Shown here one piece after another: positions 3,652 to 44,896 of a stretch of DNA of 64,000 nucleotides (its first letter is position 1; each line of letters opens with the position of its first letter). The notes under the pieces are model-generated. The model was not told the origin of the DNA. It worked only from the letters and a program-made list of their open reading frames with translations, and ran no database searches. The stretch lies in the IMG/VR virus record IMGVR_UViG_3300032334_001923, positions 32,001-96,000 of that record, one strand, 5' to 3'. This DNA is from a virus. Position numbers and translations under genes: made by a program.

Positions 3652-3659
3652 TACATTTG
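3652..3659 (+). promoter_or_regulatory. Bacteroidota-type -7 promoter element (TAnnTTTG) upstream of DNA ligase
   Basis: TACATTTG lies 18 nt before the ATG at 3678, with a T-run 17 nt further upstream. The same architecture occurs at 10162 and 23167. Confidence 0.7.
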
Positions 3660-3677: not shown

Positions 3678-5009
3678 ATGATTCAGGAAATAAGAGTATT
3701 AAGAAAAATCGAATCCCTTACAGGCGAAGGATCTCAAAAATCAAAGCAGAATTTAATTAATGAGTCTTTAACCCCAGAGATGGAGTATATCTTAGATGTC
3801 TGTTTTAATCCCTTTGTCACAACTAAACTCCATAAAATATCCTTTCGGGAAACCCCAAAGGAAGGTAATCCTAATCTCTTCAATGATTTTAAAACATTGA
3901 TAGAGGATCTTAAAAAAGCTCCAGCAGCAAACGATCTTTTAAGAGAAAGAGCTCAGACAATTATATCCTATCGTTTATCTGAGGATGATCAAGAGGATAC
4001 AGATCTTAGAAAAAATCTAATGAAGGTTTTGACCAAAAGAATGAATATAGGCATCGGTGCTAAACTTATAAACAAAGCAGTTGGAAAAGAGCTTATCCCT
4101 GATCCATCACTTATGTTGGCAACTGATGATCACCAAACAATAGAGGCTTGGAATAAGATTTACTGTGAAGAAAAATATGACGGGGTCAGAGTAATTGCCC
4201 TTTATAAAAACGGAGAGTTTTCATATTTTACTAGAGCCTTTAATGAGCTTGATTCTTCATGTTTTCCTAAGATTACTTTTGATCTAAAAACATGTATGAT
4301 AAACTCAGGACTAAAGGGTGACTGGTTTTTTGATGGTGAATTAACAGATCTTAATAGAAAATCTGTTAGTGGAAAGGTTACTCAAATACTTAAAGGAACT
4401 GTTGATGAGAAAATAGAGACTGGCATGCTATTTAATGTATTCGACTTTGAAGAAGCAGTAACTTTAGAAAAAGGAAGTGGAGTAATAGAATATAGAACAC
4501 GCAGAAGCACATTAGAAAATGTACTTAAACATCTTGATGAAAATTCCCCTGTTAAATTGGCTCAGATGTGGGAATTGGAAGATTCCACTGCAGTTAGTCT
4601 TGTTTACAAGGAAATAGTAAAAATAGGAGGCGAGGGCGTTATATGTAAAAATGACTCAGTTTATGAATGCAAAAGATCTAAGTCTTGGGTTAAATTCAAA
4701 GAAGTTAACGAGTGCGATCTTGAAGTAACTGGTTGGTATCCAGGAGAGGGCAAAAGAGAAGGAATGATAGGAGGATTTATGATGACAGACTCTTCTAAAA
4801 CTATGACGGTTAGGGTTGGTGCAGGATTCAGCGATTTGGATCTACAGACCCTTAGCAAAGATCCAGATTCTCATATAGGTAAAATTGCTGCTGTTCAATA
4901 CAACGTGACTATCACGGATAAGCACGGGAATAGATCTTTATTTTTACCTCGCTTTGTAGATATAAGAAATGATAAAACTCAAGCAGACGATCTTTCCTCT
5001 CTTTTTTAG
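3678..5009 (+). CDS. ATP-dependent DNA ligase
   Basis: Motif I EEKYDGVR, FFDGEL, FNVFD, GEGVICK, RSKSWVKFK, OB-fold V.VGAGFSD and LFLPRFVDIRNDK. Confidence 0.95.
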   Translation: MIQEIRVLRKIESLTGEGSQKSKQNLINESLTPEMEYILDVCFNPFVTTKLHKISFRETPKEGNPNLFNDFKTLIEDLKKAPAANDLLRERAQTIISYRLSEDDQEDTDLRKNLMKVLTKRMNIGIGAKLINKAVGKELIPDPSLMLATDDHQTIEAWNKIYCEEKYDGVRVIALYKNGEFSYFTRAFNELDSSCFPKITFDLKTCMINSGLKGDWFFDGELTDLNRKSVSGKVTQILKGTVDEKIETGMLFNVFDFEEAVTLEKGSGVIEYRTRRSTLENVLKHLDENSPVKLAQMWELEDSTAVSLVYKEIVKIGGEGVICKNDSVYECKRSKSWVKFKEVNECDLEVTGWYPGEGKREGMIGGFMMTDSSKTMTVRVGAGFSDLDLQTLSKDPDSHIGKIAAVQYNVTITDKHGNRSLFLPRFVDIRNDKTQADDLSSLF

Positions 5010-5036
5010 AAACAACCAATAAAATAATCTCTAGAA
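5009..5036 (+). promoter_or_regulatory. Putative ECF/phage-sigma-type promoter GAAAC-N17-CTAGAA
   Basis: Ends 6 nt before the ATG at 5043. Identical 17-nt spacing at 9187, 28467 and 39245. Confidence 0.6.
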
Positions 5037-5042
5037 ATTAAT

Positions 5043-5987
5043 ATGATACAAGAACTTTTAACCGAAAAACTCAGACCTAAAGAGCTGAGACATATGATAC
5101 TCCCGTCGAGGATATCTAATCTTTTTAGTCAAGGATTAGGACACAATGTTCTTCTAAGCGGACCTCCAGGATGCGGAAAAACAACCCTTGCTAAAATCCT
5201 TGCTGCACCCTTCCCTAGTATATTTATAAACGTTTCTGACGAAAGCTCTGTTGAAACAATCAGGGTTAAGATTAACGATTTCTGTTCCACCATATCTGTT
5301 TTGGATAATAAATCGTCTAAGAAAATAGTTATTTTAGACGAGTTTGACGGGGCTTCGGATCAATTCTATAAAGCACTAAGAGGTACGATAGAAAAGTTCG
5401 CAGGCAACACTAGATTCATTGCTACGTGCAATTATATCAACAAGGTTCCTGATGCAATCCAGAGCAGATTTGAGTTAGTTGATTTTAATCCAGTTAGCTC
5501 GGAAGAGGAAGATTTACTAAAGGACGAATGGAACAGGAGGATAAAACTAATATTAGGAAAACTCAGTATTCAAATAGATGATGATTCCCTTAATGAATTC
5601 CAGAAATCCTACTACCCAGATTTTAGATCAGCTTTAAATAAAGTTCAAAGCTGGATGCTTGAAGGGGTTAAGGAAGTCGATAGCAACAAGATTAAAGAAT
5701 TAGGCTGGTCGTACGAGAACTTATATAATTTGATTATCACATCTAAAGACCCTGTTAAAAACTACGAAGAGATCGTCGGTGAATATCAAGGTAAGGTTGA
5801 TGAGGTTATGTCAGCTTTAGGTGATGAGTTTATAAAATGGATCATTAAAAACAAGCCAGCACTTAAAAAGATAATTCCTGGAGTTATTGTTTTAGTGGCA
5901 GATCACCAATCACAGAGAACACAAGTAATAGATCCTATGGTCTCCCTACTTTCTCTAATATTTCAGATACAAAAACTTGTTGACTAA
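5043..5987 (+). CDS. Sliding clamp loader AAA+ subunit (T4 gp44 / RFC small subunit-like)
   Basis: LTEKLRPK, Walker A GPPGCGKTT, INVSDE, Walker B ILDEFDG, FIATCNY, IQSRF, YPDFRS. Confidence 0.92.
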   Translation: MIQELLTEKLRPKELRHMILPSRISNLFSQGLGHNVLLSGPPGCGKTTLAKILAAPFPSIFINVSDESSVETIRVKINDFCSTISVLDNKSSKKIVILDEFDGASDQFYKALRGTIEKFAGNTRFIATCNYINKVPDAIQSRFELVDFNPVSSEEEDLLKDEWNRRIKLILGKLSIQIDDDSLNEFQKSYYPDFRSALNKVQSWMLEGVKEVDSNKIKELGWSYENLYNLIITSKDPVKNYEEIVGEYQGKVDEVMSALGDEFIKWIIKNKPALKKIIPGVIVLVADHQSQRTQVIDPMVSLLSLIFQIQKLVD

Positions 5988-5989
5988 GA

Positions 5990-6535
5990 ATGAGCAAATA
6001 TAAAAGAATAATAGTAGCAGGAAAGGGTGGATCAGGAAAAGATTATTTAGTTAAATTACTAAAGGATCGGGGATTTATTTATTCGGTTTCCCACACTTCC
6101 CGGCCGCCCAGAGAGGGCGAGATCGATGGATCTGATTATTATTTCGTTTCTTATGAAGAAGCAAATGAGATGTCTCTAAACGGTAAGTTTTATGAGTGTG
6201 TTATTTTTAACGATTGGTTTTATGGGACTTCTTTAGACGAGTTCTACAGAGCTAATCTTTTTATTATGACACCTTCGGGAATAGGGAAATTAAAACCCGA
6301 AGACAGGGAGCAGTCGCTTGTTGTTTATATAGATATAGATAGGGAAACAAGAAGATCTAGATTGAGCAATAGAAGAGACGCAGATAATGCTGAAAGAAGA
6401 ATAAAAGCAGATGATATAGATTTTTCAGATTTCTGTGATTATGATATAAGAATAGAAGATCCTAACTTCAGTATAGATGAGGTTTTGGAAAAAATAAAAA
6501 ACATCTCACCCAAGATTATCTATAATGAAATATAA
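5990..6535 (+). CDS. gmk: Guanylate kinase
   Basis: GKGGSGKD P-loop variant, SVSHTSRPPREGEIDGSDYYFVS, WFYGT. Confidence 0.88.
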   Translation: MSKYKRIIVAGKGGSGKDYLVKLLKDRGFIYSVSHTSRPPREGEIDGSDYYFVSYEEANEMSLNGKFYECVIFNDWFYGTSLDEFYRANLFIMTPSGIGKLKPEDREQSLVVYIDIDRETRRSRLSNRRDADNAERRIKADDIDFSDFCDYDIRIEDPNFSIDEVLEKIKNISPKIIYNEI

Positions 6536-9234: not shown

Positions 9235-10137
9235 ATGCTATTTGGCCAAAATCCACCCGAGATAACATATTTAGGAAAACCAAAAGAATTTGGTGATGAG
9301 AAGGTTGTTTTAAACTCCTATCTTGATCTTATTTCCGCCATTAGAAAATTTTTAGAGTTCAATCTATCTCTTGATATAAAGATAGTTTGTCTTGATGTTT
9401 CTGATTTTTCTTTTTCTCCCGATTTCTTCAACACGCCTATAGAAGAGGAGTCCCCGTTAGTATCAAATGAAATAGATGCAATAAACACGTTAATATCTAA
9501 GAATAATATAAGGATATGTGTTTTTATAGGTAAGGATTATTTTTTGGGCAGTCAGTTGGAAGTTGTTGTAGATTCGACAGTAAGCTTACTAAACAGATTA
9601 TCGGGTATACTTGATGTTATAGGTGTAAACTACCCATCCATAATGATCAGAATAGGTTCTGCCTACGGAAACAGAAAGTTAACTATGGATGAATTTTGCA
9701 ATAGACTTTCTTTATTGGATGATAATACTGTTTCAAAGCTGTGTGTCATGAATGACGATAAGCCAAGCCTATTCTCAATAACAGATCTTTTATCTGGTGT
9801 TTATTATAAATCAGGAATACCTATATGTTTTAGAATACTTCCGCATCAATTTAATGATGGTGGATTAACCATAAGGGAAGCGCTCTTTTTATCGGGCTCA
9901 ACCTGGGATAAAGGATGCAAACCTATCTTTTTCCATTCGGAGTCTTCCGATCTTGATTCGGACGGTATACCGAACACACCTCACACAACGGAATACCTAA
10001 CTAGAAGAATCCCAACATTTGGTTTAGATCTAGACGTTGTCATAGAATCCACAGCAAAGGAGGATTCTTGTCTAAAATACAGAATGGATTATAAATCCCT
10101 ACCTCCGATAGTTATAAATAAAATAAACCGAAAATAA
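9235..10137 (+). CDS. UV-damage endonuclease (UvsE/UVDE) homolog with degenerate metal ligands
   Basis: IGSAYG, NDDKPSLFSITDL..GVYYKSGIPICF, DGGLTIREAL..STW, HSES, LDVVIES follow the UvsE layout, but several His/Glu/Asp ligand positions are substituted. Confidence 0.7.
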   Translation: MLFGQNPPEITYLGKPKEFGDEKVVLNSYLDLISAIRKFLEFNLSLDIKIVCLDVSDFSFSPDFFNTPIEEESPLVSNEIDAINTLISKNNIRICVFIGKDYFLGSQLEVVVDSTVSLLNRLSGILDVIGVNYPSIMIRIGSAYGNRKLTMDEFCNRLSLLDDNTVSKLCVMNDDKPSLFSITDLLSGVYYKSGIPICFRILPHQFNDGGLTIREALFLSGSTWDKGCKPIFFHSESSDLDSDGIPNTPHTTEYLTRRIPTFGLDLDVVIESTAKEDSCLKYRMDYKSLPPIVINKINRK

Positions 10138-10161
10138 TTTTTTTATTTCGGGAATACTGTT

Positions 10162-10169
10162 TACTTTTG
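10162..10169 (+). promoter_or_regulatory. Bacteroidota-type -7 promoter element (TAnnTTTG)
   Basis: TACTTTTG lies 14 nt before the ATG at 10184, with a T-run 17 nt upstream. Confidence 0.7.
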
Positions 10170-10183
10170 TAAAAAATAGAAAA

Positions 10184-10885
10184 ATGTTTTTAAAAGAAAA
10201 TATCGATAAGTTTTTATACTTTGACGTTGAAACCGCAGCTTCATATAGGAATCTAGACGAGCTCAAAAATAATAACGAGAGGCTGTATAATCTGTGGAAG
10301 AAAAGAGAGCTTTATTATATTGGGGCATACGAGGAAATGAAAAATGCAACACCAGAGGAGATCTACGAAGCTAAAGCTGGATTAGAACCCGAATTCTCTA
10401 GGGTTGTTTGTGTTTCTTTTGGTTCTTTTACAGATTCGGGAGAAAGAAAGTTTATATCTTTCTACGGGGAGGATGAGGCTGATATACTTAATAAATCGGC
10501 TAAAGTCTTAAACAACGCAGCAGCTAAAAACTGGAAATTATGCGGACATAACATAAAAGGATTTGATGTTCCCTGTCTTGGTAAGAGAATGATCTATAAT
10601 AAAATAAATCCCCCTTCCAATATTAGAATATGGGATAAAAAACCATGGGAGGTTCCTTTTATGGACACTTCTGAGATATTTGCATTTGGAAGCTGGGTAC
10701 AACAGAAATACTTAAGTTTAGATCTTTTAGCTTGTTCAATGGGGATAGAATCTCCAAAAGGAACCATGGATGGATCCAAAGTAAATGATTCATATTGGAA
10801 TAAGAAAGACTATGAATCTATTAAGATCTATTGCGAGCTTGATGTTGACACTGTTATGAGTGTAATGGAATCTCTCTGCTTATAA
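10184..10885 (+). CDS. Stand-alone 3'-5' exonuclease (DnaQ/PolB-exo-like)
   Basis: ExoI YFDVETA, ExoII GHNIKGFDVP, ExoIII YCELDV. Confidence 0.88.
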   Translation: MFLKENIDKFLYFDVETAASYRNLDELKNNNERLYNLWKKRELYYIGAYEEMKNATPEEIYEAKAGLEPEFSRVVCVSFGSFTDSGERKFISFYGEDEADILNKSAKVLNNAAAKNWKLCGHNIKGFDVPCLGKRMIYNKINPPSNIRIWDKKPWEVPFMDTSEIFAFGSWVQQKYLSLDLLACSMGIESPKGTMDGSKVNDSYWNKKDYESIKIYCELDVDTVMSVMESLCL

Positions 10886-20613: not shown

Positions 20614-23100
20614 ATGATGAATAAGAACCCTTATATCTACAACCCGGTTGCTAGAATGATGCTAGAAAGCCTAAGCGATCAGCTTTTCGAAAACGAAAAG
20701 GTAGATTCACTTTTAGGAAAAGCATGCGATAATGCTCTAAATTGCTTTAAGATCCTAACTTTTGATTTAGCACCAAAGAGAGATAGGAATCCAGATGTTC
20801 TCAGAGTTAAAGTCTCTGATATAGCAAATTCTAAAGACACCAAAGAGCTAACTGCAAAGCTTTTAGATTATGCAGATGACAATGAAGTTTCTAATCCTCT
20901 CTTTGCCGAGGTTAAATCCCTCTATATTTCAAGTCTTAAAAAATTCTCCGAGGCATTAATAAGAGCTGCTGAGATAAGTAAAGAGAATAATCAGTTTATC
21001 ATTAAAAAGTTTAAATCAGATTCGGCTAAGCTTCAGGGCAGTGTTGATATCATTGCTAAACAAGCAGAAGAGGAACTCGAAAAAAAGGAGCAGGAAGAGG
21101 CTAGATTAAGCGAATCTTTAGGACCGATCAACGAAAATCTTTTTAGTGGATATAAAGGAAGAGTAGCAGATCTAAGAAAACTTCTTGCAAATCTAATAAG
21201 CTCTGCAGAAGGAAAGGATCAAAAGAACGGTTACGGAAGAGATTGGAAAAGAACATTCATCGAGCTTGATCAGCAAAGAAAAACTCTAGACACTCATAGA
21301 GGTGAGATAGGGGAAAAGAATAAAAAGAATCTTGAGGAACTAGAAAAGAAGGTTGAAAAATTCCAGGATGAATTTAATAACTCCCTTATTACTTCCTCAA
21401 ACAGAGCTCTACAAAATTTAGAGAATGACGAGGAGGTTTATACTTCTTATACTGATGTTACTGAATTGATAAATCAAGCATTGGATTATTTAACTAGAGC
21501 TAAGACACAATATGCTATAGCTATAAAAGAAATAAGCAATAGAAAGATAGTTAAAGATGAGGATATCAGTAAGATGCTATTCCCTATCAAAAAAGGAGAC
21601 AAAGACGTCAACCCTAGATTTAAGGGAAGTAAACTTATATTCAATATCCAAACAGCTTTATGTAATTCTTTACCTGCTGCAAAAAAAGCTATTACCGCTA
21701 ACGGTGGTCCTGCTGGAAACTTTGGATCTGCAACTAAATCAGTAATTGCAACTTTACAGAAAATCGCTGGTAATAAAAACGTTAACGGAGAAATCGACAA
21801 AACCCTTTTATCTAACATCTTAGATTCGGATTGGGTTTCTATGGAAGATAAGAAAGCAATTCAAAAATCTATAGAAAAAATAAAGGAAAAATCTAAGGTT
21901 AATGAATCTGTAGATTCTTATGAAATCCTCCAACTAAACGAGGAAAAAATTGTTATCAACCAATCTGAATTTGAAAAGGAATTAAAAACTCAATATAAAG
22001 AGATAACAGGTAAACCCAATTTTACTAAGCTTTCTAAAGGTGGAGAATCTGGAGGTGAAAAATCTTCTAGCGTTTCTGCTCTTGCTAAAAAGTTAAGAAG
22101 TGAATATAGCATAAAGATTGAATCTGATGATTTTGTAAAAGCAGACGGCACACTTAAATATTCATACTCTCCTGAGTTTATAGCTTCTTGGAATAAAGCT
22201 ATAGATTTAGCAAAGCCTTCTAAAGATTTCTCCTACTTCTTTACAAGAGACGGGATTTATAACATAAACATTCCTAGCTCTTCATTAAAAACTCCTTGCA
22301 ACTGGATCAAATGGGCAAACATTAGACAGATAAAAACACTAGGAAATGAAGATGCGACATCCTTTGTTGAAAACTATTTAAAGGGATGGTCAACTTTTGG
22401 ATTAATCAGACCACAATGGAGATATGAAGGAATCAGAGAACTCTTAAGAAAAAATTCAGAGCAGGGAGATGACGATTTAGCAGGTGCATACGAAATGATG
22501 GAATCTTGCATAAAGAACGGACCAGTACCTTTCGTCGATTATGACAATCTAAAGAACGAAATCGCAGATGCTTTTAGAATAGTGCTTCAGACTAAAGAAA
22601 AATCTCCAGTCCTTGGAGCTAGCGATTTTATTTCTTTGAATAACTTCTTAGTGATGATTGCCAACTGTATAAGTTTCGACGGAAGTAAATTTATCAGCTG
22701 TATAAAGTGGATCCATGATAATATCCTAGGTGAATCAACAGCTAATAGAATAACCAAAGATTCTATTGGATTTTTGGGTACTACTGTAAATGCTAAAGAT
22801 CCTTTCTTAGGGTATCAAAGCAGCAGAATTATAGTTTCAAAAACAGAAGAACTAGAGGAAGTAAGAAACAAACCAGTATCGAAAGATCCTTCCAGATCAC
22901 TATCTGGATTCCAGCCTCTAATTAAGATGGGTGAAAAAGAGGGTAAGGGAATTAGAGGATCTCTTGGAAAAAATATCTTCTACATTTCTGCTGACATTTA
23001 TCCAAGTATATCAGCACACGTAAAAAGAATGAACGCTACAAGTTTTGACGATATTCCTCAAACTGCACCTTTCAAATGTGTAAATGCAGATTCTAAATAA
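20614..23100 (+). CDS. Large hypothetical protein with a central peptidoglycan-binding-like domain
   Basis: IKKGDKD..IFNIQTAL..GPAGNFGSATKSVIATLQKIAG..NGEIDKT resembles PG_binding_1. Several (I/L/V)xE motifs (MLES, LSES, INEN, VNES, LNEE). Confidence 0.65.
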   Translation: MMNKNPYIYNPVARMMLESLSDQLFENEKVDSLLGKACDNALNCFKILTFDLAPKRDRNPDVLRVKVSDIANSKDTKELTAKLLDYADDNEVSNPLFAEVKSLYISSLKKFSEALIRAAEISKENNQFIIKKFKSDSAKLQGSVDIIAKQAEEELEKKEQEEARLSESLGPINENLFSGYKGRVADLRKLLANLISSAEGKDQKNGYGRDWKRTFIELDQQRKTLDTHRGEIGEKNKKNLEELEKKVEKFQDEFNNSLITSSNRALQNLENDEEVYTSYTDVTELINQALDYLTRAKTQYAIAIKEISNRKIVKDEDISKMLFPIKKGDKDVNPRFKGSKLIFNIQTALCNSLPAAKKAITANGGPAGNFGSATKSVIATLQKIAGNKNVNGEIDKTLLSNILDSDWVSMEDKKAIQKSIEKIKEKSKVNESVDSYEILQLNEEKIVINQSEFEKELKTQYKEITGKPNFTKLSKGGESGGEKSSSVSALAKKLRSEYSIKIESDDFVKADGTLKYSYSPEFIASWNKAIDLAKPSKDFSYFFTRDGIYNINIPSSSLKTPCNWIKWANIRQIKTLGNEDATSFVENYLKGWSTFGLIRPQWRYEGIRELLRKNSEQGDDDLAGAYEMMESCIKNGPVPFVDYDNLKNEIADAFRIVLQTKEKSPVLGASDFISLNNFLVMIANCISFDGSKFISCIKWIHDNILGESTANRITKDSIGFLGTTVNAKDPFLGYQSSRIIVSKTEELEEVRNKPVSKDPSRSLSGFQPLIKMGEKEGKGIRGSLGKNIFYISADIYPSISAHVKRMNATSFDDIPQTAPFKCVNADSK

Positions 23101-23166: not shown

Positions 23167-23174
23167 TACTTTTG
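23167..23174 (+). promoter_or_regulatory. Bacteroidota-type -7 promoter element (TAnnTTTG)
   Basis: TACTTTTG lies 25 nt before the ATG at 23200, just after a terminator. Confidence 0.7.
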
Positions 23175-29444: not shown

Positions 29445-30035
29445 ATGAATTCGAAAATAGAAGAAAAAGTAATCTCGTCAACCCCATGGTTTGATGTGAT
29501 AGAAAGAGAAGGAAATTTTGGTGTTAAAACCACTGCTGAATCCGTTATAATACTGCCTTTTATTTCTGACGATCAGGGATTACCTCTAATGATAGGAGTA
29601 CTAAAAGAAAGGAATCATTTCAGAGAAGGTGGTTATTCATTAAGTCTTGTCTCTGGTAAATGTGAAGACGAGGATCCAAATTTTTTAGAGACTGCTAAAA
29701 GAGAGTTGAAAGAAGAGTCCGGATTTAATGTTGACGATAACGATAAATGGTTTTTTCTAGGAACAGTAACAGCTTCTAAATTCGTAGATTCTGAGCATCC
29801 TTGTTTTGCTGTCGATGTAACTGGTTTATCTAAAGGAGAGGCAAAAACAGACGGATCTGAAAATGAAAAGCTCTCAACATTTTCTTTCATTCCAGCAAAC
29901 GATGTCGTTAAAACTAAGGACGTTTTTATCCCTGCACTTTTCTTAAAACTTTTCAAATACGTTGTTGGAATGGATCTATATAAGAGAGATGATTCAGTTT
30001 TCGGTAACCCTAAAGGATTCACAGCAGAAATTTAA
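29445..30035 (+). CDS. Nudix hydrolase
   Basis: Nudix box GKCEDEDPNFLETAKRELKEESGF. Confidence 0.85.
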   Translation: MNSKIEEKVISSTPWFDVIEREGNFGVKTTAESVIILPFISDDQGLPLMIGVLKERNHFREGGYSLSLVSGKCEDEDPNFLETAKRELKEESGFNVDDNDKWFFLGTVTASKFVDSEHPCFAVDVTGLSKGEAKTDGSENEKLSTFSFIPANDVVKTKDVFIPALFLKLFKYVVGMDLYKRDDSVFGNPKGFTAEI

Positions 30036-30041
30036 AAAAAC

Positions 30042-30332
30042 ATGGCAAACACTAGTAACCGCAAAGAACAAAGAAAGCTTATTAAGCAATTGGGTCTTAA
30101 TAAATCCAATGGTGGGATTAATGATTTTTCTCTAAATATAGAGATAGGAAAGGAAAAGCACCGTAGACACGTACAGGAAATGAAAAACAGAGAGATAATG
30201 GAAAAGGTCTATACTAATCCTAGCTCAGTAGAATCACAGGATCTTTTTTTTTACAGGGGTCAAGATGGACCTGAATATTCCAATCTTCAGGATCTTTTAG
30301 TTAATAGAAAATGGGACGAAACAGAGGATTAA
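30042..30332 (+). CDS. Small hypothetical protein
   Basis: ORF tiling. Confidence 0.6.
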   Translation: MANTSNRKEQRKLIKQLGLNKSNGGINDFSLNIEIGKEKHRRHVQEMKNREIMEKVYTNPSSVESQDLFFYRGQDGPEYSNLQDLLVNRKWDETED

Positions 30333-37080: not shown

Positions 37081-37758
37081 ATGCCAAGTGAAAAAACATA
37101 CCTTGGTAAAGTAGTTGACAATAAAGATCCACTTTACCAAGGAAGAGCAAAAATAAACGTTTTTGGAATCTTTGATGATATCCCAACAGAGGATCTACCT
37201 TGGGCCGAGCAGATTTCCGGTTTATCTTTTGGTGGATCTTACGGAGGTGGTAACACTTCTATTCCCAGAATAGGTTCTGTGGTAGCAGCTCATTTTGAAG
37301 ATGGTAATTACTACAAGATTAATTATCACTACATTAAAGAGATCTCTGAGGATCTTCTGGCAAAGCTTAAGGAGGAGAATTCATACGAGCTTGGCCAGTA
37401 TTTAATATACGACTCTGAATCTAAGCCTGGTCCACTTCATCTATATTACAATCAAAAAGATGGATTTGTTTTTGAACTCGGAGATGCTAAGGTTCAACTC
37501 GACACTCAAAACGGAGGAAATCTTAGAGTTGTTATCAAAATGGGCAAGGATGAAATACGGATGGAAGATAGCAAAGTGATTGTTAATTGTAATAACATAG
37601 AGCTCGGTGAAGGTGCTACAGAGAAGCTTGTACTCGGTAACAAATTCTTACAACTTTTCAATCAGCATACACACCCGACAGGGGTAGGTCCTTCAGGTGT
37701 TCCTGTAGTTCCAATGGTTGATGCACAGCATCTAAGTCAAGTATCTAAAACTAAATAA
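37081..37758 (+). CDS. Baseplate central spike (gp5 OB-fold N-terminus, gpV-like tip)
   Basis: YLGKVVDNKDPLYQGRAKINVFG..LPWAE, IPRIGSVV, and C-terminal FNQHTHPTGVGPS with an HxH metal site. Confidence 0.8.
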   Translation: MPSEKTYLGKVVDNKDPLYQGRAKINVFGIFDDIPTEDLPWAEQISGLSFGGSYGGGNTSIPRIGSVVAAHFEDGNYYKINYHYIKEISEDLLAKLKEENSYELGQYLIYDSESKPGPLHLYYNQKDGFVFELGDAKVQLDTQNGGNLRVVIKMGKDEIRMEDSKVIVNCNNIELGEGATEKLVLGNKFLQLFNQHTHPTGVGPSGVPVVPMVDAQHLSQVSKTK

Positions 37759-39244: not shown

Positions 39245-39272
39245 GAAACTTAAGTTTCGATATATAGTATAA
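39245..39272 (+). promoter_or_regulatory. Overlapping promoter motifs: GAAAC-N17-GTATAA, with GATATATA (39259-39266) inside the spacer
   Basis: Both recurrent motifs are present upstream of the S1-like gene (ATG 39310). Confidence 0.55.
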
Positions 39273-39309
39273 TAAATAATATTCAACTAACCTTTTAAAA
39301 CTAAAAAAA

Positions 39310-40473
39310 ATGAATTTTAATCCAGCAGAAAACTTTGATTGGGATATTCCAAATGGGCTTGCGTTTAACACTAAAATTAGAATCCCTGAGGGATCTAAGG
39401 TTTATTGTCATGCTCCATATGCACAGGAGTTAGCCGATCTTTATTTTGCCACTTTTTCACAACAACCAGATTTCGTAGGTAAGGATCTTGATGACGGAGA
39501 AGTTTACGTTTGTAAAATCACCACTCTAAGAGAAGACACTGCATTGGCCCAAACAACATCAGGTCAGACGATCTATATAGATCTTAAAAAAGAAAATAAA
39601 GATGCCCAAAGATTTAACCTTGAGCCTCACGATTTTAAAATTGGAGACGAACTTAAAGCTAGAGTTAGAAAAATAGGAGGTAGCTACTCAGGATCTGTTA
39701 TGGACTATTACATCCATAGTCTTAGAGTTGAACTCTTTGAACAGGTCAAGAAAGAGACAAGTGCTTATAAAGTTAAAATCGAAAGCATCAACAAGGGCGG
39801 TTACATTGTTGACCTCTCCGGCATTAAATGCTTCCTTCCCGGATCTCTTGCTGCTGCTAATAGAATTACCGATTTTGAATCTTATATAGGAAAAGAAATC
39901 CACGTTATGGTGGAAGGCTACGTCGAAGCAAAAGACATCTTTATAGTTTCTTATAAGAAATACCTTAACAGGATTATGGATTCCAAAATACAGGATCTTG
40001 ATCTTACTAAGAAGTATAAAGGTTATGTTACAGGAAAAAGTGAATTTGGTGTATTTGTTGAGTGGGAAGAGGTCTACACTGGTCTTATCCACAAAACCGA
40101 ATTCGAGGAGAATTCGACAATGTCTTCATTTACTCCTGGCGATGAAATTGAGTTTTACGTAAAAGAGATTAAAGATAACAATAGACTGACCCTAACACTA
40201 GAGAAGCCTCTAGAAAGAAATGTTATAGTTCACGATCTTGACAGACAAGTTAAAGAAGGAACCTGCGAACCTCTAGAAGCTAAAGTTAAGCACAAAAGGA
40301 AAAACGGAATCCTGATTGAGCTAGTCCCTCATGGTCTAATGGCTCTTATTCCCCAAGATAAATTAGGAAAGAAAACAAAAAACCTAAAATCTGGTGATGA
40401 ACTAGTAGTTTCAATATACGATGTTGAACCAACTACTGGTAAAATATTTGCTGAGCCTAATAATGACCAATAA
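39310..40473 (+). CDS. rpsA: Ribosomal protein bS1 homolog (3-4 S1 domains)
   Basis: VKIESINKGGYIVDLSGIKCFLPGS, GYVTGKSEFGVFVE..TGLIHKTEF..GDEIEFYV..RLTLTL and a further OB repeat. The N-terminal ENFDWD resembles the Bacteroidota bS1 N-terminus as recalled. Confidence 0.8.
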   Translation: MNFNPAENFDWDIPNGLAFNTKIRIPEGSKVYCHAPYAQELADLYFATFSQQPDFVGKDLDDGEVYVCKITTLREDTALAQTTSGQTIYIDLKKENKDAQRFNLEPHDFKIGDELKARVRKIGGSYSGSVMDYYIHSLRVELFEQVKKETSAYKVKIESINKGGYIVDLSGIKCFLPGSLAAANRITDFESYIGKEIHVMVEGYVEAKDIFIVSYKKYLNRIMDSKIQDLDLTKKYKGYVTGKSEFGVFVEWEEVYTGLIHKTEFEENSTMSSFTPGDEIEFYVKEIKDNNRLTLTLEKPLERNVIVHDLDRQVKEGTCEPLEAKVKHKRKNGILIELVPHGLMALIPQDKLGKKTKNLKSGDELVVSIYDVEPTTGKIFAEPNNDQ

Positions 40474-41869
40474 TAGAACACACTTTGACCAACTTAACGC
40501 TCTTAGCTCTTCCGTAATTGGATTTGAATTTGAGTTTTATACAAATATGCTTAAGGGCAAGGCTGCTGAAGCCTTGTCCAAGCTTTTGAATAAGAAGGTC
40601 GTAGTTTCTGAAAAATATCACTCCAATATTCCAGTTGATCAGAACACCTTTAAATTAGAACCTGACTATTCTGGTGGTGGAAAGATGGTGGAATTTATAA
40701 CCGGTCCGCTTCCATATAATGAGGCTATTCCTGTTATGATAAAAACCCTTAAGTGGATAGACGAAAACGGATGGACTAATGATAGATGCGCTTTTCAATT
40801 CTCAGTAAGCTTTGATAAATTTAGAACTGATGTTAAAGATAAGATACAGAATATAGATAAGCTTAAATTTATTCTAGGCCTCGATGAGGGTAAAATCTAT
40901 GATAAATTTGGAAATAGAGCAAGAAACGTTTATGCTAAGTCCATAAAAAGAGTGGTTCCAAGAAATAGGTTTTCTATTCTTGAAAATATTACTCATATAG
41001 ATCCCAAGATGTTTAAGACCCCAGAAGACAAATATTACGGGGTAAACTTCACTAAACTGGATAAGGGATATCTTGAATTCAGATATCTAGGAAACAGGGA
41101 CTACCAGAAGAAAATAAAAGACATCAGAGAGATCATTGATTATGTGGTTCTTTACCTCTACGATCTACTTAGCAGAAGAATATCCGGTTACACTAAGGAT
41201 GATGTTGCTAAGCTTCAGACAATGATGAACGCTTATACTAAGGTTGTTAGATCTTTTAGCAATCCTGAATTCTTCTTTAGAAACTACCCAGATTTTCACC
41301 TTTTTGTTGATCTAAAAGGATGGGATGAAAATATTAAAACTTATTTCCCTTTAATTAGAGACAAAGTTTTTGATCTAATTGTTGAGGGAAACATCGCATC
41401 CGGATATTTTAATTACGATACCACAACTGGAAAATACCAGTTAAAAGACGCAAGAAGCAGGGATGCTTTTATCATAGAAGGAATAGATATGATAGAATGC
41501 GACATCAAAAACGGTGTTATTAAAAACTGCAATATTTACAACTGCGATATTAAAAAGTCATCATTAGAAGATTGCAGTGTTTTATCCGGCTCTAAGATAA
41601 CCTCATCTAAAGTTAAGACTACTATTGTAGAATATGGAAACGAACTCAATGACTGCTTTATTGACTGTGAAAATATGAATATAAACTGTAAAATAGAGGG
41701 TGGAGTATTCAGAGCTGGAAATTTAGGAGAAAATTCAGAGGTTAGCAAAGAAACACATAAAGTTAAAGGCTGGGACGAAATAAGAAAACAAAGATTCGTT
41801 ACAGATAGCAGATTAAAGGATCTTAATGATAAATACAATATCCCTAGGTTCGGGAATATGAACTATTAA
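40463..41869 (+). CDS. Putative amidoligase (COOH-NH2 ligase type 2) with C-terminal beta-helix-like repeats
   Basis: IGFEFEF, LEPDYSGG, VEFITGPL, KYYGVNF, LEFRYLG and IKNCNIYNCDIKKSSLEDC repeats. ATG 40463 overlaps the rpsA stop region. Confidence 0.6.
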   Translation: MTNNRTHFDQLNALSSSVIGFEFEFYTNMLKGKAAEALSKLLNKKVVVSEKYHSNIPVDQNTFKLEPDYSGGGKMVEFITGPLPYNEAIPVMIKTLKWIDENGWTNDRCAFQFSVSFDKFRTDVKDKIQNIDKLKFILGLDEGKIYDKFGNRARNVYAKSIKRVVPRNRFSILENITHIDPKMFKTPEDKYYGVNFTKLDKGYLEFRYLGNRDYQKKIKDIREIIDYVVLYLYDLLSRRISGYTKDDVAKLQTMMNAYTKVVRSFSNPEFFFRNYPDFHLFVDLKGWDENIKTYFPLIRDKVFDLIVEGNIASGYFNYDTTTGKYQLKDARSRDAFIIEGIDMIECDIKNGVIKNCNIYNCDIKKSSLEDCSVLSGSKITSSKVKTTIVEYGNELNDCFIDCENMNINCKIEGGVFRAGNLGENSEVSKETHKVKGWDEIRKQRFVTDSRLKDLNDKYNIPRFGNMNY

Positions 41870-41884
41870 AATAATCCAGCTTAA

Positions 41885-42682
41885 ATGACCCTAGATGAGT
41901 TAGTAAAAGAAATTGAAGACGCATTATCTTTTAGTTGTGCACTTCCTTACAATCTTAACAGAAGCGAAATAGAAAGAATTATCAAAAGAGCTAAAGAATG
42001 GTTTCACGATAATTACCAATATGCTGTAGAGGATAGAATATTTATTATTGCAAATTCAATCTTTAACCACAAGGAATTTAGAGCAACTAGACAGTTAAGA
42101 CTCCCTGATGCTATAGTAACGGTTTATGACGTTAGAGAAGTTGGAGGAAATGGAATTTCTGGCAACCCAGATAGAGACTTCAGTGATTCTAAGCTTTTAG
42201 GATCAGAGCTTCTTCTATCGCCCTTTGTTGGTGATAATCTAGTTTATAGAACCGTAATGTATTCATATTTTGACCTATCTAGAGCATATCTACTTGATAG
42301 CTTTGCTTTTAAATGGAATAAAAACAGCAAAAAATTAACCATTTTAGGTAGGGATCCAAACAGATCAGGAAAACCTGGATCTCCAAGCGGAAACCAGCTT
42401 GCACAGGGATTTGCTGGTACAGGGGGAAAGGACGTTTCTATAAGATGCTTTGTTGCATTGAATGATGAGGATCTCTTTGAAGACGAGCTTTTCGTTAGAT
42501 ATTGTATTGCTAAGTGTAAAATAGCACTTTCTCAAATGCTTGGGGTTTTTACGTATAATCTTCCAGGAGGAGTTCAGATAAATGCTGGCGAGATAGGTGC
42601 TCAAGGATCAACGGAACTTCAGGAGGTAATGGATATGATAAATGGAGAAAATACTCCTTCGTATTTCTTACAATGGAACTAA
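41885..42682 (+). CDS. Neck/head-completion protein (T4 gp13-like)
   Basis: EIERIIKRAKEWF, FKWNKNSKKLTILG, FVRYCIAKCK..YNLPGGVQINAGEI..ELQEV. Confidence 0.75.
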   Translation: MTLDELVKEIEDALSFSCALPYNLNRSEIERIIKRAKEWFHDNYQYAVEDRIFIIANSIFNHKEFRATRQLRLPDAIVTVYDVREVGGNGISGNPDRDFSDSKLLGSELLLSPFVGDNLVYRTVMYSYFDLSRAYLLDSFAFKWNKNSKKLTILGRDPNRSGKPGSPSGNQLAQGFAGTGGKDVSIRCFVALNDEDLFEDELFVRYCIAKCKIALSQMLGVFTYNLPGGVQINAGEIGAQGSTELQEVMDMINGENTPSYFLQWN

Positions 42683-43168: not shown

Positions 43169-44896
43169 ATGAATATTTTTAAGAAGAATAATATCCTAAT
43201 CAACGGATTACTAAACGACACCTTCGTTTTTTTGCAGGACACCTATAACCAAACTGCAAATCTTTTCACGGTGGCTTCTGCTTGGGGACAAATTCTCTTT
43301 GTGGTTCAGAATCTTTCCCAGATGATTCTCTACTTTATAGAGGATTCCATTACCGAGCTCAATATGGAACAAGCCACTAGAGATTATTCGGTTAGAAGTT
43401 TGGCTAGAATAGCAGGCTATGATCCAGGAAGAGCAACAGCATCACAGGGTGAGGTTTCTATTGCTTGGAATGCAAGAGAATCTGACGTTGGAGGAGGATC
43501 TATAATATTAAATAATTACACACAGATCAGATGCCAAGAAAACGGTAAGCTTTATTCTTTAATTTTTGGATCACAAAAAGTAACCATTCCTCTTACCGGA
43601 GGTACCTCTCCTTTAAGATGTAAGATAGCTCAGGGATTTTTTCAGAGCAACATTGTAACCGGAACTGGACAGGCACTACAGAGCTTCAATATACCAGCAC
43701 AATCTGGATCTTATATAGACCAGTTCTATGTTGATGTTTACGTAAACGAGGAAAAATGGAAGAGATATGATTCTTTATATGATATTCCTCTTAACGGCAA
43801 AGGATACCTAGTAAAAACGGGAATACAGGAAGGTATAGACATTTACTTCGGAAACTCATATTTCGGATTAAATCCTCAGAGTGGATCTAGAATCAGAATA
43901 GAATACTTGCAAACAACTGGAGCTGCAGGGAACTCAAAATCGACAAAAGAAAAACCTCTCACCTATAAATTCAACACAACAGGAACTGACCTATTTGGAA
44001 AAGAAGTAGATGTTAACAACTACTTAAATATAATTCCAGGAGTAGATCCTATGTTCGGAACAAATCCAGAATCGACAAATCTAATTAGACTAGTGGCTCC
44101 AAAGACCAGTAGATCTTTTGTTTTTGCAAATGCTCAAAACTATGAAATTTTCCTAGATAAACTTGGTATATTTTCTCAGGTCCAGGCATTCTCAACTTTT
44201 GATGATGATTATCTTGATGACGATAACGTTGTTTACATTTATCTTGTCCCTGACATAACTTTAAACATAAGTTCAAACGAGGATTATTTCAGTGTTCCGG
44301 TAACTGACTTTTTATTATCTCAAGCTCAAAAAACCGCTGTATTGAATCTTATTCAGGATTCAGGATCAATGATAGCAACCACTGTTGTTAAAATAGTCGA
44401 GCCTATTATCACTAGATACACAGGAAACGTCATCATGACAATGTTCGAGGGCTACGATCCAGAGACTATAAAAACAGAAATCAGAAAAAGGATCTCAACT
44501 TATATGTTAAATCTTAAAAGAAGGGACACCATTCCTAAATCTGATATAATAGCAATCATAGAAGGTATTGATGGTGTTGACTCTGTTAATTTCTTTTTCG
44601 TCGGACAGAAAAATGAAGCAAACCAGTTAGCAGTTCAAAATTTAAGTAACGTTTCAGATATTCAGAAAGATCAGATCTTAGGAATGAACGACTTTGGAGA
44701 CATTGTAATTGGAAGAAATGAACTGGTTGTTTTAAGAGGTGGATGGTCAGATAGAAACGGGACAGTGTTTACTGAAAGTATCGTTGATGGCAAACCCGGT
44801 CCTTTAAACATTAGTATCTCCTCAGTGGTAAAGAAAAACTACAGAGCAGATCTTAATGCTGAAACCAAAAATGTAATTATAAAATCTTCTACATAA
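43169..44896 (+). CDS. Baseplate wedge subunit (T4 gp6 / baseplate J-like)
   Basis: ATRDYSVRSLARIAGYDP, IYFGNSYFGLNP, IRIEYLQTTGAAGN, ESTNLIR, NVVYIYLVP, IEGIDGVDSV. Confidence 0.82.
   Translation: MNIFKKNNILINGLLNDTFVFLQDTYNQTANLFTVASAWGQILFVVQNLSQMILYFIEDSITELNMEQATRDYSVRSLARIAGYDPGRATASQGEVSIAWNARESDVGGGSIILNNYTQIRCQENGKLYSLIFGSQKVTIPLTGGTSPLRCKIAQGFFQSNIVTGTGQALQSFNIPAQSGSYIDQFYVDVYVNEEKWKRYDSLYDIPLNGKGYLVKTGIQEGIDIYFGNSYFGLNPQSGSRIRIEYLQTTGAAGNSKSTKEKPLTYKFNTTGTDLFGKEVDVNNYLNIIPGVDPMFGTNPESTNLIRLVAPKTSRSFVFANAQNYEIFLDKLGIFSQVQAFSTFDDDYLDDDNVVYIYLVPDITLNISSNEDYFSVPVTDFLLSQAQKTAVLNLIQDSGSMIATTVVKIVEPIITRYTGNVIMTMFEGYDPETIKTEIRKRISTYMLNLKRRDTIPKSDIIAIIEGIDGVDSVNFFFVGQKNEANQLAVQNLSNVSDIQKDQILGMNDFGDIVIGRNELVVLRGGWSDRNGTVFTESIVDGKPGPLNISISSVVKKNYRADLNAETKNVIIKSST

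What the first reader, a model, noticed from the sequence alone, without database searches (positions are those of the whole stretch)
39245..40473. Phage-encoded ribosomal protein bS1 within the baseplate/neck cluster, with two overlapping promoter types
This is a shortened bS1 (387 aa) that keeps a Bacteroidota-like FDWD N-terminal segment and the ribosome-binding plus first mRNA-binding domains. Phage S1 homologs are known from large phages, but here both the GAAAC-N17 and GATATATA motifs precede the gene. Start codons across the window have A-rich leaders with no Shine-Dalgarno motif, where bS1 matters most. Replacement of host bS1 to bias translation toward phage mRNA is the inferred role.
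Basis: partly seen in the sequence, partly recalled or inferred. Interest (0 to 1): 0.72.

Follow-up and report, generated by a model that had tools for sequence, protein, structure and literature searches.

The report
Phage four-domain ribosomal protein S1 copy
A large uncultured phage of Bacteroidia-type hosts carries a shortened copy of ribosomal protein S1 among its baseplate genes. The copy keeps the host-type ribosome-docking segment and sits behind a conserved double promoter, but such phage S1 genes have been reported since 2020 and none has been tested.

Summary
ORF 39310-40473 (+) encodes a 387-aa protein that matches the N-terminal anchor plus S1 domains D1-D4 of Bacteroidia bS1, in register. 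D5-D6 are missing.

- **Docking segment:** it keeps the class-specific FDW motif and the uS2-binding helix.
- **Binding model:** a model with a Flavobacteriales uS2 scores 0.75 against 0.00 for the best control. Like complexes are solved, so this shows likeness only.
- **Family:** it belongs to a large phage family, with relatives on 324 IMG/VR contigs of up to 434 kb. The family forms one very long branch outside cellular bS1 and holds a fixed place in the baseplate/neck module.
- **No Shine-Dalgarno:** AGGAG occurs before 1 of 107 genes, and leaders are A-rich.
- **Two promoter motifs:** both are real and overlap only at this gene. One is an ECF-sigma-like GRAAY-N17-STANAA box, shared with replication genes. 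The other is a gp55-type (G/A)ATATATA box.
  - The late box stands upstream of the S1 gene in 70 of 70 relatives.
  - The dual arrangement stands in 30 of 70.
  - The record encodes both a sigma factor and a gp55-like late sigma.

Ribosome docking is well supported in silico. A bias toward phage mRNA is only inferred. Al-Shayeb et al. (2020) reported possible phage rpS1 genes and their link to missing SD motifs, and this scan has met the family in at least 52 other genomes. Verdict: new member of a known kind.

The parts
39245..39249 (+). -35-like element GAAAC of an ECF-sigma-type promoter motif (GRAAY-N17-STANAA)
   Evidence: The motif occurs 11 times in the window against 2.8 expected. GGAAC/GAAAC is conserved at the same register in 30 of 70 relatives. 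It is also the left arm of the palindrome GAAACTTAAGTTTC, whose right arm is not conserved.
39259..39266 (+). GATATATA box, candidate gp55-type late promoter element
   Evidence: All 11 copies in the window lie on the + strand, against 4.4 expected. RATATATA occurs 30 times on + and 2 times on - in the record. It is present 33-79 nt before the S1 gene in 70 of 70 relatives with full upstream sequence. A gp55-like late sigma gene lies in the same record.
39267..39272 (+). -10-like element GTATAA of the ECF-type motif, directly after the late box
   Evidence: It lies exactly 17 nt from GAAAC. It is conserved as sTAyAA in relatives.
39290..39309 (+). A-rich leader without a Shine-Dalgarno motif; A at -1 to -7 and -10 to -13
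   Evidence: Read directly from the sequence. Adenines at -3, -6, -12 and -13 enhance initiation in F. johnsoniae according to PMC13000457.
39310..40473 (+). CDS of the 387-aa phage bS1 homologue (P0001)
39334..39345 (+). FDWD (residues 9-12): counterpart of the aromatic N-terminal helix of Bacteroidia bS1 (FLANFNWHNF in F. johnsoniae), which contacts uS8
   Evidence: MAFFT and hhalign put it in register with the Bacteroidia FDW motif. The structural role of that helix is described in PMC13000457. The AF2 model has low pLDDT here.
39415..39456 (+). Helix PYAQELADLYFATF (residues 36-49): counterpart of the uS2-binding N-terminal helix of bS1
   Evidence: It aligns with E. coli SFAQLFEESL and Bacteroidia YSxEExxxLxxLYxxTL. 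AF2 predicts a helix at 38-49. It forms the core of the modelled uS2 interface.
39493..39699 (+). S1 domain D1 (residues 62-130)
   Evidence: AF2 strands 65-129. hhalign places it in register with bS1 D1.
39757..39963 (+). S1 domain D2 (residues 150-218), the most conserved part of the family (GGYxVDLSGIKCFLPGSL)
   Evidence: It aligns with E. coli D2, KGGFTVELNGIRAFLPGSL. The family's invariant columns cluster here.
40006..40203 (+). S1 domain D3 (residues 233-298) with the canonical S1 RNA-binding signature (GxVTG..FGVFVE..TGLIH)
   Evidence: Best Pfam S1 stretch at 235-295. It aligns with E. coli D3. Invariant columns are listed.
40261..40461 (+). S1/OB domain D4 (residues 318-384), a less canonical S1 domain
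   Evidence: AF2 strands 322-383. hhalign places it in register with bS1 D4. Pfam OB_cyt-4 matches weakly at 320-383.
40463..41869 (+). Downstream virion-module gene; its likely start at 40463 overlaps the end of the S1 gene by 11 nt
   Evidence: The listed ORF starts at 40421. The in-frame ATG at 40463 gives 468 aa and the same 11-nt overlap seen in the 430-kb relative L072.

Best explanation
The gene encodes a phage-lineage paralogue of ribosomal protein bS1. It consists of the Bacteroidia-type N-terminal anchor (the FDW aromatic segment plus the uS2-binding helix) followed by S1 domains D1-D4. D5 and D6 are absent.

Most likely mechanism:
1. The anchor and D1-D2 dock on the host 30S subunit at the bS1 site, on uS2/uS8 near the mRNA exit.
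2. D3, and the weaker D4, capture single-stranded A-rich leaders.
3. Ribosomes carrying the phage protein can then initiate on the phage's SD-less mRNAs. In Bacteroidia, bS1 is loosely bound, sub-stoichiometric and needed for SD-less initiation.

The gene has a composite promoter. An ECF-sigma-type motif, shared with replication genes, overlaps a gp55-type late box shared with virion genes. The protein would therefore be made from the middle period through the late period.

Shown: homology, in-register domain correspondence, conservation of the anchor, conservation of both promoter motifs, and absence of SD motifs.
Inferred: ribosome binding, the timing of expression, and any preference for phage over host mRNA.
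For: **In-register homology**
- hhalign of the phage family against a Bacteroidia bS1 alignment matches query 4-385 to template 1-364 with probability 99.9, E 7e-36 and score 267. Registers shifted by one or two domains score 178 and 119.
- Residues 148-297 align with E. coli S1 D2-D3.

**Anchor**
- FDW is present in almost all of 31 Bacteroidia bS1 frames and in none of 29 from other Bacteroidota classes.
- In F. johnsoniae 30S cryo-EM, bS1 residues 4-40 form a helix-loop-helix on uS2 and uS8, with the aromatic helix FLANFNWHNF (PMC13000457).

**Structure**
- AF2 gives mean pLDDT 83, a helix at 38-49 and four OB domains.
- The best PDB structural matches are ribosome-bound bS1: 9gut_B at E 2e-23, and 9guq_B with TM 0.72 over D1-D2.

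**Complex model**
- Flavobacteriales uS2 residues 1-232 with phage residues 1-135 scores 0.75; the best of 3 controls scores 0.00.
- That mark was reached by 58 of 80 solved complexes and 2 of 110 mismatched pairs.
- The runs agree in at least 88% of contacts, and the partner's pLDDT is at least 77.
- The interface is formed by residues 29-49 and part of D1.
- S1-S2 complexes are solved, so this shows likeness, not binding.

**Selection**
- The family has 1408 hits at 90% clustering, and 123 clusters at 50% clustering with E<=1e-30, almost all 360-430 aa long.
- Relatives lie on 324 IMG/VR contigs, and synteny is conserved at 70% identity.
- D2 is the most conserved region.

**Translation context**
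- The record has no SD motifs and its leaders are A-rich.

**Promoters:**
Against: - No experiment or expression data could be obtained.
- The protein fails every curated bS1 HMM cut-off: 90 bits against 577.
- It is very divergent. The family sits on a stem of 3.66 changes per column, outside cellular Bacteroidota bS1. Function may therefore have drifted.
- It lacks D5-D6, and D4 is not a canonical S1 domain.
- FDW is missing from roughly half of the most distant family members.
- The FDW segment has low model confidence, and its contact with uS8 was not modelled.
- The uS2 used came from a stand-in Flavobacteriales genome, not the unknown host.
- Nothing tested bears on discrimination between phage and host mRNAs. 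Host mRNAs are also SD-less and A-rich.
Confidence: 0.6

Rival explanations
1. Extra-ribosomal RNA-binding factor. The protein descends from bS1 but now works off the ribosome, for example as an mRNA chaperone or protector, a cofactor of a phage nuclease or polymerase (as host S1 is for T4 RegB and Q-beta replicase), or a link between phage transcription and translation.
For: - S1 repeats are common in non-ribosomal proteins, and single-domain matches to PNPase and CvfD appear.
- The family is extremely divergent from cellular bS1 and lacks D5-D6.
- Al-Shayeb et al. left open a role 'on or off the ribosome'.
- Host S1 has known extra-ribosomal roles in phage infection, reviewed in PMC13157829.
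Against: - The parts that are kept and most constrained are those bS1 uses for docking, not for RNA binding: the FDW segment, the uS2 helix and D1-D2.
- The modelled uS2 interface is confident against its controls.
Confidence: 0.2
2. Competitive blocker. The truncated S1 occupies the bS1 site and shuts down the host mRNAs that need full-length bS1 (D5-D6) to be unfolded. Unstructured phage leaders are still translated. It would be a specificity switch by loss of function rather than by gain.
For: - The protein has the anchor and D1-D4 but lacks D5-D6.
- The 4-domain length is strictly conserved across the family.
- From my own knowledge, not checked here: N-terminal S1 fragments expressed in E. 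coli displace S1 and change mRNA selectivity.
Against: - D3 keeps the canonical RNA-binding signature and is highly conserved, which argues for an active mRNA-binding role.
- Four-domain S1 proteins exist in cells, as shown by the Firmicutes-type model NF005208.
- No data on mRNA structure were gathered.
Confidence: 0.12
3. Virion-associated protein. Because it lies inside the baseplate/neck block behind a late promoter, it could be a structural OB-fold protein, or a packaged protein delivered with the DNA to act on host ribosomes at once.
For: - Its place between the baseplate hub and the gp13-like neck gene is conserved.
- The late box is conserved in 70 of 70 relatives.
- Earlier unchecked notes of this scan propose aromatic/acidic N-terminal head-targeting leaders in this genome.
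Against: - The N-terminus aligns in register with the bS1 anchor rather than forming a separate leader.
- All sequence and fold matches are to bS1, none to virion proteins.
- The additional middle-type promoter is shared with replication genes, not with virion genes.
Confidence: 0.06

Closest known systems
Ribosomal protein bS1 (RpsA) of class Bacteroidia, e.g. Flavobacterium johnsoniae bS1 (N-terminal residues 4-40 seen on uS2/uS8; PMC13000457)
   Same: - It has the FDW/FNW aromatic segment and the following helix.
- D1-D4 are collinear, with the FLPGS signature in D2 and the canonical RNA-binding motif in D3.
- The setting is SD-less translation with A-rich leaders.
   Different: - It has four domains instead of six (387 aa against about 590).
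- A roughly 20-aa insert separates the FDW segment from the helix.
- It scores 90 bits against about 500-575 bits for real Bacteroidia bS1 on TIGR00717.
- It forms a separate, very long branch in the tree.
- It is encoded by a phage, inside virion genes.
'Possible rpS1' genes of huge phages (Al-Shayeb et al. 2020, Nature, PMC7162821), including Lak megaphages of Prevotella
   Same: - It is homologous: tblastn gives 28-35% identity to Lak-A/B/C and to most of the LR745206 and LR7565xx records (26% for the weakest two), with E down to 8e-37.
- It comes from large phages without SD motifs.
- The proposed role in initiation is the same.
   Different: - This clade is only about 33% identical to the Lak proteins.
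- That paper could not confirm that its genes were true rpS1. Here the in-register anchor and domain correspondence, and the conserved composite promoter, are documented for this clade.
Four-domain S1 proteins of Firmicutes (NCBIfam NF005208, PRK06676 type)
   Same: It has four S1 repeats and a similar length; the 391-position model matches residues 108-378.
   Different: The score is only 77 bits against a 368-bit cut-off. The N-terminal anchor is of the Bacteroidia type, and hhalign shows a truncation of the six-domain form rather than kinship with that family.
bS1 of jumbo cyanophage PhiMa05 (PMC13157829)
   Same: Both are phage-encoded bS1 proteins thought to replace the host protein.
   Different: PhiMa05's ribosomal proteins group with Vampirovibrio homologues, which points to recent capture. 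The present family is an old, phage-only lineage with no close cellular relative.
T4 gp55 late promoters (TATAAATA) and ECF-sigma promoters (GGAAC -35)
   Same: - The late box is an A/T-rich octamer without a -35 element, found before virion genes, and a gp55-like gene is present.
- The other motif has a GGAAC-type -35 and a fixed 17-nt spacer, and a 202-aa sigma gene is present.
   Different: - The late box reads (G/A)ATATATA, not TATAAATA.
- Which sigma reads which motif is inferred.
- The two motifs overlap at this gene, the only such site in the window.

Membership tests
Ribosomal protein bS1 (RpsA) | N-terminal helix that binds uS2 | tested here: met
   PYAQELADLYFATF aligns with the bS1 N-terminal helix. 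AF2 predicts a helix at 38-49. It forms the modelled uS2 interface: score 0.75, best control 0.00. That is a model only, and like complexes are solved.
Ribosomal protein bS1 (RpsA) | Class-Bacteroidia aromatic segment (FDW/FNW) that contacts uS8 | tested here: met
   The motif is present at residues 9-11 and aligns in register. It is found in almost all of 31 Bacteroidia bS1 frames and in 0 of 29 from other classes. The contact itself was not modelled.
Ribosomal protein bS1 (RpsA) | Collinear D1-D2 ribosome-binding pair followed by RNA-binding S1 domains | tested here: met
   hhalign in register: probability 99.9, E 7e-36. phmmer matches E. coli D2-D3. Foldseek gives TM 0.72 to ribosome-bound D1-D2.
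Ribosomal protein bS1 (RpsA) | Six S1 repeats (Bacteroidia and Proteobacteria type) | tested here: not met
   The protein has four OB domains only and ends after D4.
Ribosomal protein bS1 (RpsA) | Score above the curated equivalog cut-offs (TIGR00717, NF00495x, NF005208) | tested here: not met
   90 bits against 577; 77 bits against 368. None of 41 true Bacteroidia bS1 reach 577 either, but they score 496-575 bits.
Ribosomal protein bS1 (RpsA) | Branches among cellular bS1 in a tree | tested here: inconclusive
   The phage family is one clade (100) on a stem of 3.66, outside Bacteroidota bS1 with weak support (87). The AU test was lost when the script machine failed.
Ribosomal protein bS1 (RpsA) | Physical presence on 30S subunits | not testable with these tools
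   This needs ribosome proteomics, co-sedimentation or cryo-EM.
Putative rpS1 of huge phages (Al-Shayeb 2020) | Multi-S1-domain protein encoded by a phage of more than 200 kb, homologous to the reported ones | tested here: met
   tblastn hits Lak and LR7565xx records. The record is a 127-kb fragment estimated 46% complete. Relatives lie on contigs of 320-434 kb.
Putative rpS1 of huge phages (Al-Shayeb 2020) | Genome without identifiable Shine-Dalgarno motifs | tested here: met
   AGGAG precedes 1 of 107 genes, GGAGG precedes 0 of 107, and leaders are A-rich.
gp55-type late promoter | A gp55-like sigma in the genome, and an A/T-rich -10-type octamer without a -35 before virion genes | tested here: met
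   phrog_234 late sigma at E 1e-16. The box is strand-specific and intergenic. It is conserved in 70 of 70 relatives. Transcription starts were not mapped.
ECF-sigma-type promoter | GGAAC-like -35, fixed spacer and short -10, with a cognate small sigma gene | tested here: inconclusive
   The motif is enriched, 11 against 2.8 expected. It is conserved in register in 30 of 70 relatives. A 202-aa sigma with region 2 is present. That this sigma reads this motif is not shown.

The most novel reading that the evidence does not exclude
The phage S1 is a dedicated initiation factor of a phage-run translation programme. It would be made from the middle period onward through a composite ECF/gp55 promoter. 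It would replace the loosely bound host bS1 on Bacteroidia 30S subunits through the shared FDW/uS2 anchor. Its shortened mRNA-binding arm would then shift start-site choice toward phage leaders. That would make it a virus-encoded, ribosome-resident specificity subunit, conserved across hundreds of huge phages.
Probability: 0.3. Interest if true: 0.75.

Novelty: new member of a known kind. Interest (0 to 1): 0.4.

Why it matters
How Bacteroidia ribosomes choose start codons without Shine-Dalgarno pairing is an open question, and bS1 is the main suspect. This phage family keeps only the docking part of bS1 and two mRNA-binding domains. It marks the anchor residues (the FDW segment and the uS2 helix) as the constrained core. 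It could be put directly into the existing F. johnsoniae in vitro initiation and cryo-EM systems.

It would also be one of the clearer cases of a virus supplying a ribosome component. The conserved double promoter gives a testable prediction about when the protein is needed. As a discovery it is not new: the gene type was reported in 2020, and this scan has met it many times.

Tried and rejected
- **Megablast** of 20 kb around the gene against GenBank phages gave no match.
- **PHROGs** has no family for the protein.
- **The search for related loci** with the 29-member alignment failed because no stretch was conserved enough. The 10-member alignment found only one hit in GTDB genomes, a phage-like contig binned with a Saprospirales MAG. 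That is a weak host hint at best.
- **Recent capture from a host** is rejected. The family is monophyletic on a very long stem, and the best 150 of the 50%-identity representative hits include no cellular-length bS1.
- **The AU test** of a 'phage + Bacteroidia' clade could not be run, because the script machine was lost.
- **Other translation genes:** no tRNA gene in the window and no bS21 in the 127-kb record. The record is only about 46% complete.
- **The palindrome GAAACTTAAGTTTC** as an operator is rejected as a conserved feature. Its right arm varies in relatives while GGAAC and the late box stay.
- **The generic sigma-70 and terminator scan** around the gene gave nothing above chance for promoters.
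- **A structural OB-fold baseplate protein** was considered and rejected, because every sequence and fold match is to bS1.
Full report
**1. The observation**

The window is bases 32001-96000 of a 127,287-base IMG/VR virus record that CheckV estimates to be 46% complete. An ATG ORF runs from 39310 to 40473 on the + strand and encodes 387 aa. The finding's start, 39245, is the first base of an upstream motif.

Pfam finds three S1 stretches (E 7e-17). In NCBIfam the eleven best hits are all models of 30S protein S1, but far below their cut-offs: TIGR00717 gives 90 bits against a 577-bit cut-off. Non-ribosomal S1 proteins (PNPase, CvfD, RNase R) match one domain only and much more weakly.

The neighbours are virion genes:
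- a gp5-like baseplate hub at 37081-37758;
- a T4 gp13-like neck/adaptor protein at 41885-42682;
- a gp6-like wedge protein at 43169-44896.

**2. What the protein is**

All 13 PDB sequence matches are bS1-type ribosomal S1 chains. Residues 148-297 align collinearly with E. coli D2-D3, including KGGYIVDLSGIKCFLPGSL against KGGFTVELNGIRAFLPGSL.

I collected bS1 from 30 genomes of class Bacteroidia and 30 of other Bacteroidota classes. I then compared the phage family profile with a Bacteroidia bS1 alignment using hhalign. The best alignment runs from the very N-terminus through D4: query 4-385 against template 1-364, probability 99.9, E 7e-36, score 267. Registers shifted by one or two domains score only 178 and 119. 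The protein is therefore bS1 without D5-D6.

The AlphaFold model has mean pLDDT 83. It shows one helix at 38-49 and four OB domains at 65-129, 153-214, 235-296 and 322-383. Its best structural matches are ribosome-bound bS1 chains: 9gut_B at E 2e-23, and 9guq_B with TM 0.72 over D1-D2.

**3. The N-terminal anchor**

- Almost all of the 31 Bacteroidia bS1 open frames carry [F/I/V/Y][D/N]W about 15 residues before the N-terminal helix.
- None of 29 bS1 from other Bacteroidota classes has it, nor does E. coli.
- MAFFT and hhalign place the phage FDW (residues 9-11) on that motif. They place PYAQELADLY on the helix that corresponds to E. coli SFAQLFEESL. The phage has a roughly 20-residue insert between the two.

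A 2026 cryo-EM study of the F. johnsoniae 30S subunit built bS1 residues 4-40 as a helix-loop-helix bound to uS2 and uS8. Its aromatic helix reads FLANFNWHNF. [quoted passage not shown] So the phage protein keeps exactly the elements that the host class uses to dock bS1.

I also ran a complex model with a Flavobacteriales uS2 (residues 1-232, as an alignment) and phage residues 1-135.
- The score was 0.75, and the best of three controls scored 0.00.
- That mark was reached by 58 of 80 solved complexes and 2 of 110 mismatched pairs.
- The runs agree in at least 88% of contacts, and the partner's pLDDT is at least 77.
- The interface is formed by residues 29-49 and part of D1.

Because S1-S2 complexes are solved, this shows likeness to them, not binding. 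The uS2 is also a stand-in for the unknown host's protein.

**4. The family**

- The protein has 1408 hits at 90% clustering, nearly all 385-397 aa long, on contigs of up to 434 kb.
- At 50% clustering there are 123 clusters with E<=1e-30, again almost all 360-430 aa.
- 324 IMG/VR contigs encode relatives.
- GenBank matches are the Lak megaphages of Prevotella and the huge phages of Al-Shayeb et al., at about 26-35% identity.
- In a relative with 70% identity on a 430-kb contig, the flanking genes have the same order and sizes.
- D2 is the most conserved region, followed by D3 with the canonical S1 RNA-binding signature.
- In a tree the phage family is one clade (support 100) on a stem of 3.66 changes per column. 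It lies outside cellular Bacteroidota bS1 with weak support of 87.

This is an old, fast-evolving phage lineage, not a recent capture. The FDW character links it to Bacteroidia, but the tree cannot confirm that. The AU test was lost when the script machine failed.

**5. Translation context**

Among 107 genes called in the record, AGGAG lies upstream of one and GGAGG of none. A makes up 50-60% of positions -15 to -1, against 34% overall. The S1 leader itself has A at -1 to -7 and at -10 to -13. This fits the adenine preferences reported for F. johnsoniae.

**6. The two promoter motifs**

*The late box.* (G/A)ATATATA occurs 30 times on the + strand and twice on the - strand of the record. Most copies lie in short intergenic regions 2-47 nt before gene starts, often just after a hairpin and T-run.

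I tested it: 11 matches in the window against 2.8 expected, and no shuffle out of 100 reached 11. On the + strand it precedes:
- the clamp loader (5043), an endonuclease (9235) and a kinase (23152);
- the gp55-like gene just outside the window;
- the S1 gene.

*The sigma genes.* The record encodes a 202-aa sigma factor (PF04542, phrog_1740) and a 119-aa late sigma (phrog_234, gp55-like).

*The overlap at S1.* At the S1 gene the two motifs overlap: GAAAC at 39245-39249, GATATATA at 39259-39266, and GTATAA at 39267-39272. This is the only place in the window where they do.

*Conservation in relatives.*
- In 70 of 70 related IMG/VR loci with full upstream sequence, RATATATA lies 33-79 nt before the gene.
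- In 30 of 70, the exact ECF-like pattern starts 14 nt before it, as it does here.
- The aligned footprint reads AAAGGAACTTAAG ... GATATATAsTAyAAT ... A-rich ... ATG, inside otherwise unconserved sequence.
- The palindrome GAAACTTAAGTTTC is not conserved.

The inference is that the gene is transcribed from the middle period, together with replication genes, and again late. Transcription starts were not mapped.

**7. Mechanism and rivals**

Best reading (0.6): the protein docks on host 30S subunits through the conserved anchor and D1-D2, and uses D3-D4 to capture A-rich, SD-less leaders. It would supplement or replace host bS1, which is loosely bound in Bacteroidia (PMC7797042).

| Rival reading | Confidence |
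|---|---|
| An off-ribosome RNA-binding role | 0.2 |
| A competitive blocker that lacks D5-D6 | 0.12 |
| A packaged or structural virion protein | 0.06 |

No test here addresses a preference for phage over host mRNA.

**8. Comparison and novelty**

Al-Shayeb et al. (2020) reported possible rpS1 genes in huge phages and noted that those phages rarely have SD motifs. They said that true rpS1 could not be confirmed. Phage bS1 is also reported for PhiMa05.

This scan has already examined the same family in at least 52 other genomes and reached the same conclusion. The present gene is therefore a new member of a known kind. This report adds, for this clade, quantified and comparative evidence for the composite promoter and a controlled uS2 model. 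Interest: 0.4.

Noticed in passing
window 3652-3659, 10162-10169, 23167-23174 (and G000 21318): Short intergenic regions 14-25 nt before gene starts contain TAnnTTTG boxes, the -7 element of Bacteroidota housekeeping promoters. This suggests a third, host-sigma promoter class and a Bacteroidota host.
   Followed up: partly
G000 21972-22580 and G000 29816-30175 (both before the window's start): Two phage sigma genes lie here: a 202-aa sigma70-family factor (PF04542, phrog_1740) and a 119-aa gp55-like late sigma (phrog_234). The gp55-like gene is itself preceded by the GRAAY-N17-STANAA motif, which fits a sigma cascade.
   Followed up: partly
window 40421-40473: The listed ORF after S1 starts at 40421, giving a 53-nt overlap. 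The in-frame ATG at 40463 gives 468 aa and the same 11-nt overlap with the end of S1 as in the 430-kb relative, which suggests translational coupling.
   Followed up: partly
window 3678-6535 and 9235-10885: Replication and nucleotide genes are interspersed with virion genes on the same strand: DNA ligase, clamp loader, guanylate kinase, an endonuclease and a 3'-5' exonuclease.
   Followed up: no
L004 (contig CALAZP010000190.1, 64 kb): The only GTDB-genome hit to the family is a 64-kb contig binned into an uncultured Saprospirales MAG. It is probably a phage contig co-binned with a possible host. That MAG's own bS1 carries YDW in place of FDW.
   Followed up: partly
window 39245-39258: The perfect palindrome GAAACTTAAGTTTC lies upstream of S1. 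Its left arm is the conserved -35-like element and its right arm is not conserved in relatives, so the symmetry looks incidental.
   Followed up: yes
L133 and L135, positions 367-394: In two more distant relatives the GRAAY-N17-STANAA pattern lies after the late box instead of before it. The two elements therefore seem able to change order.
   Followed up: no
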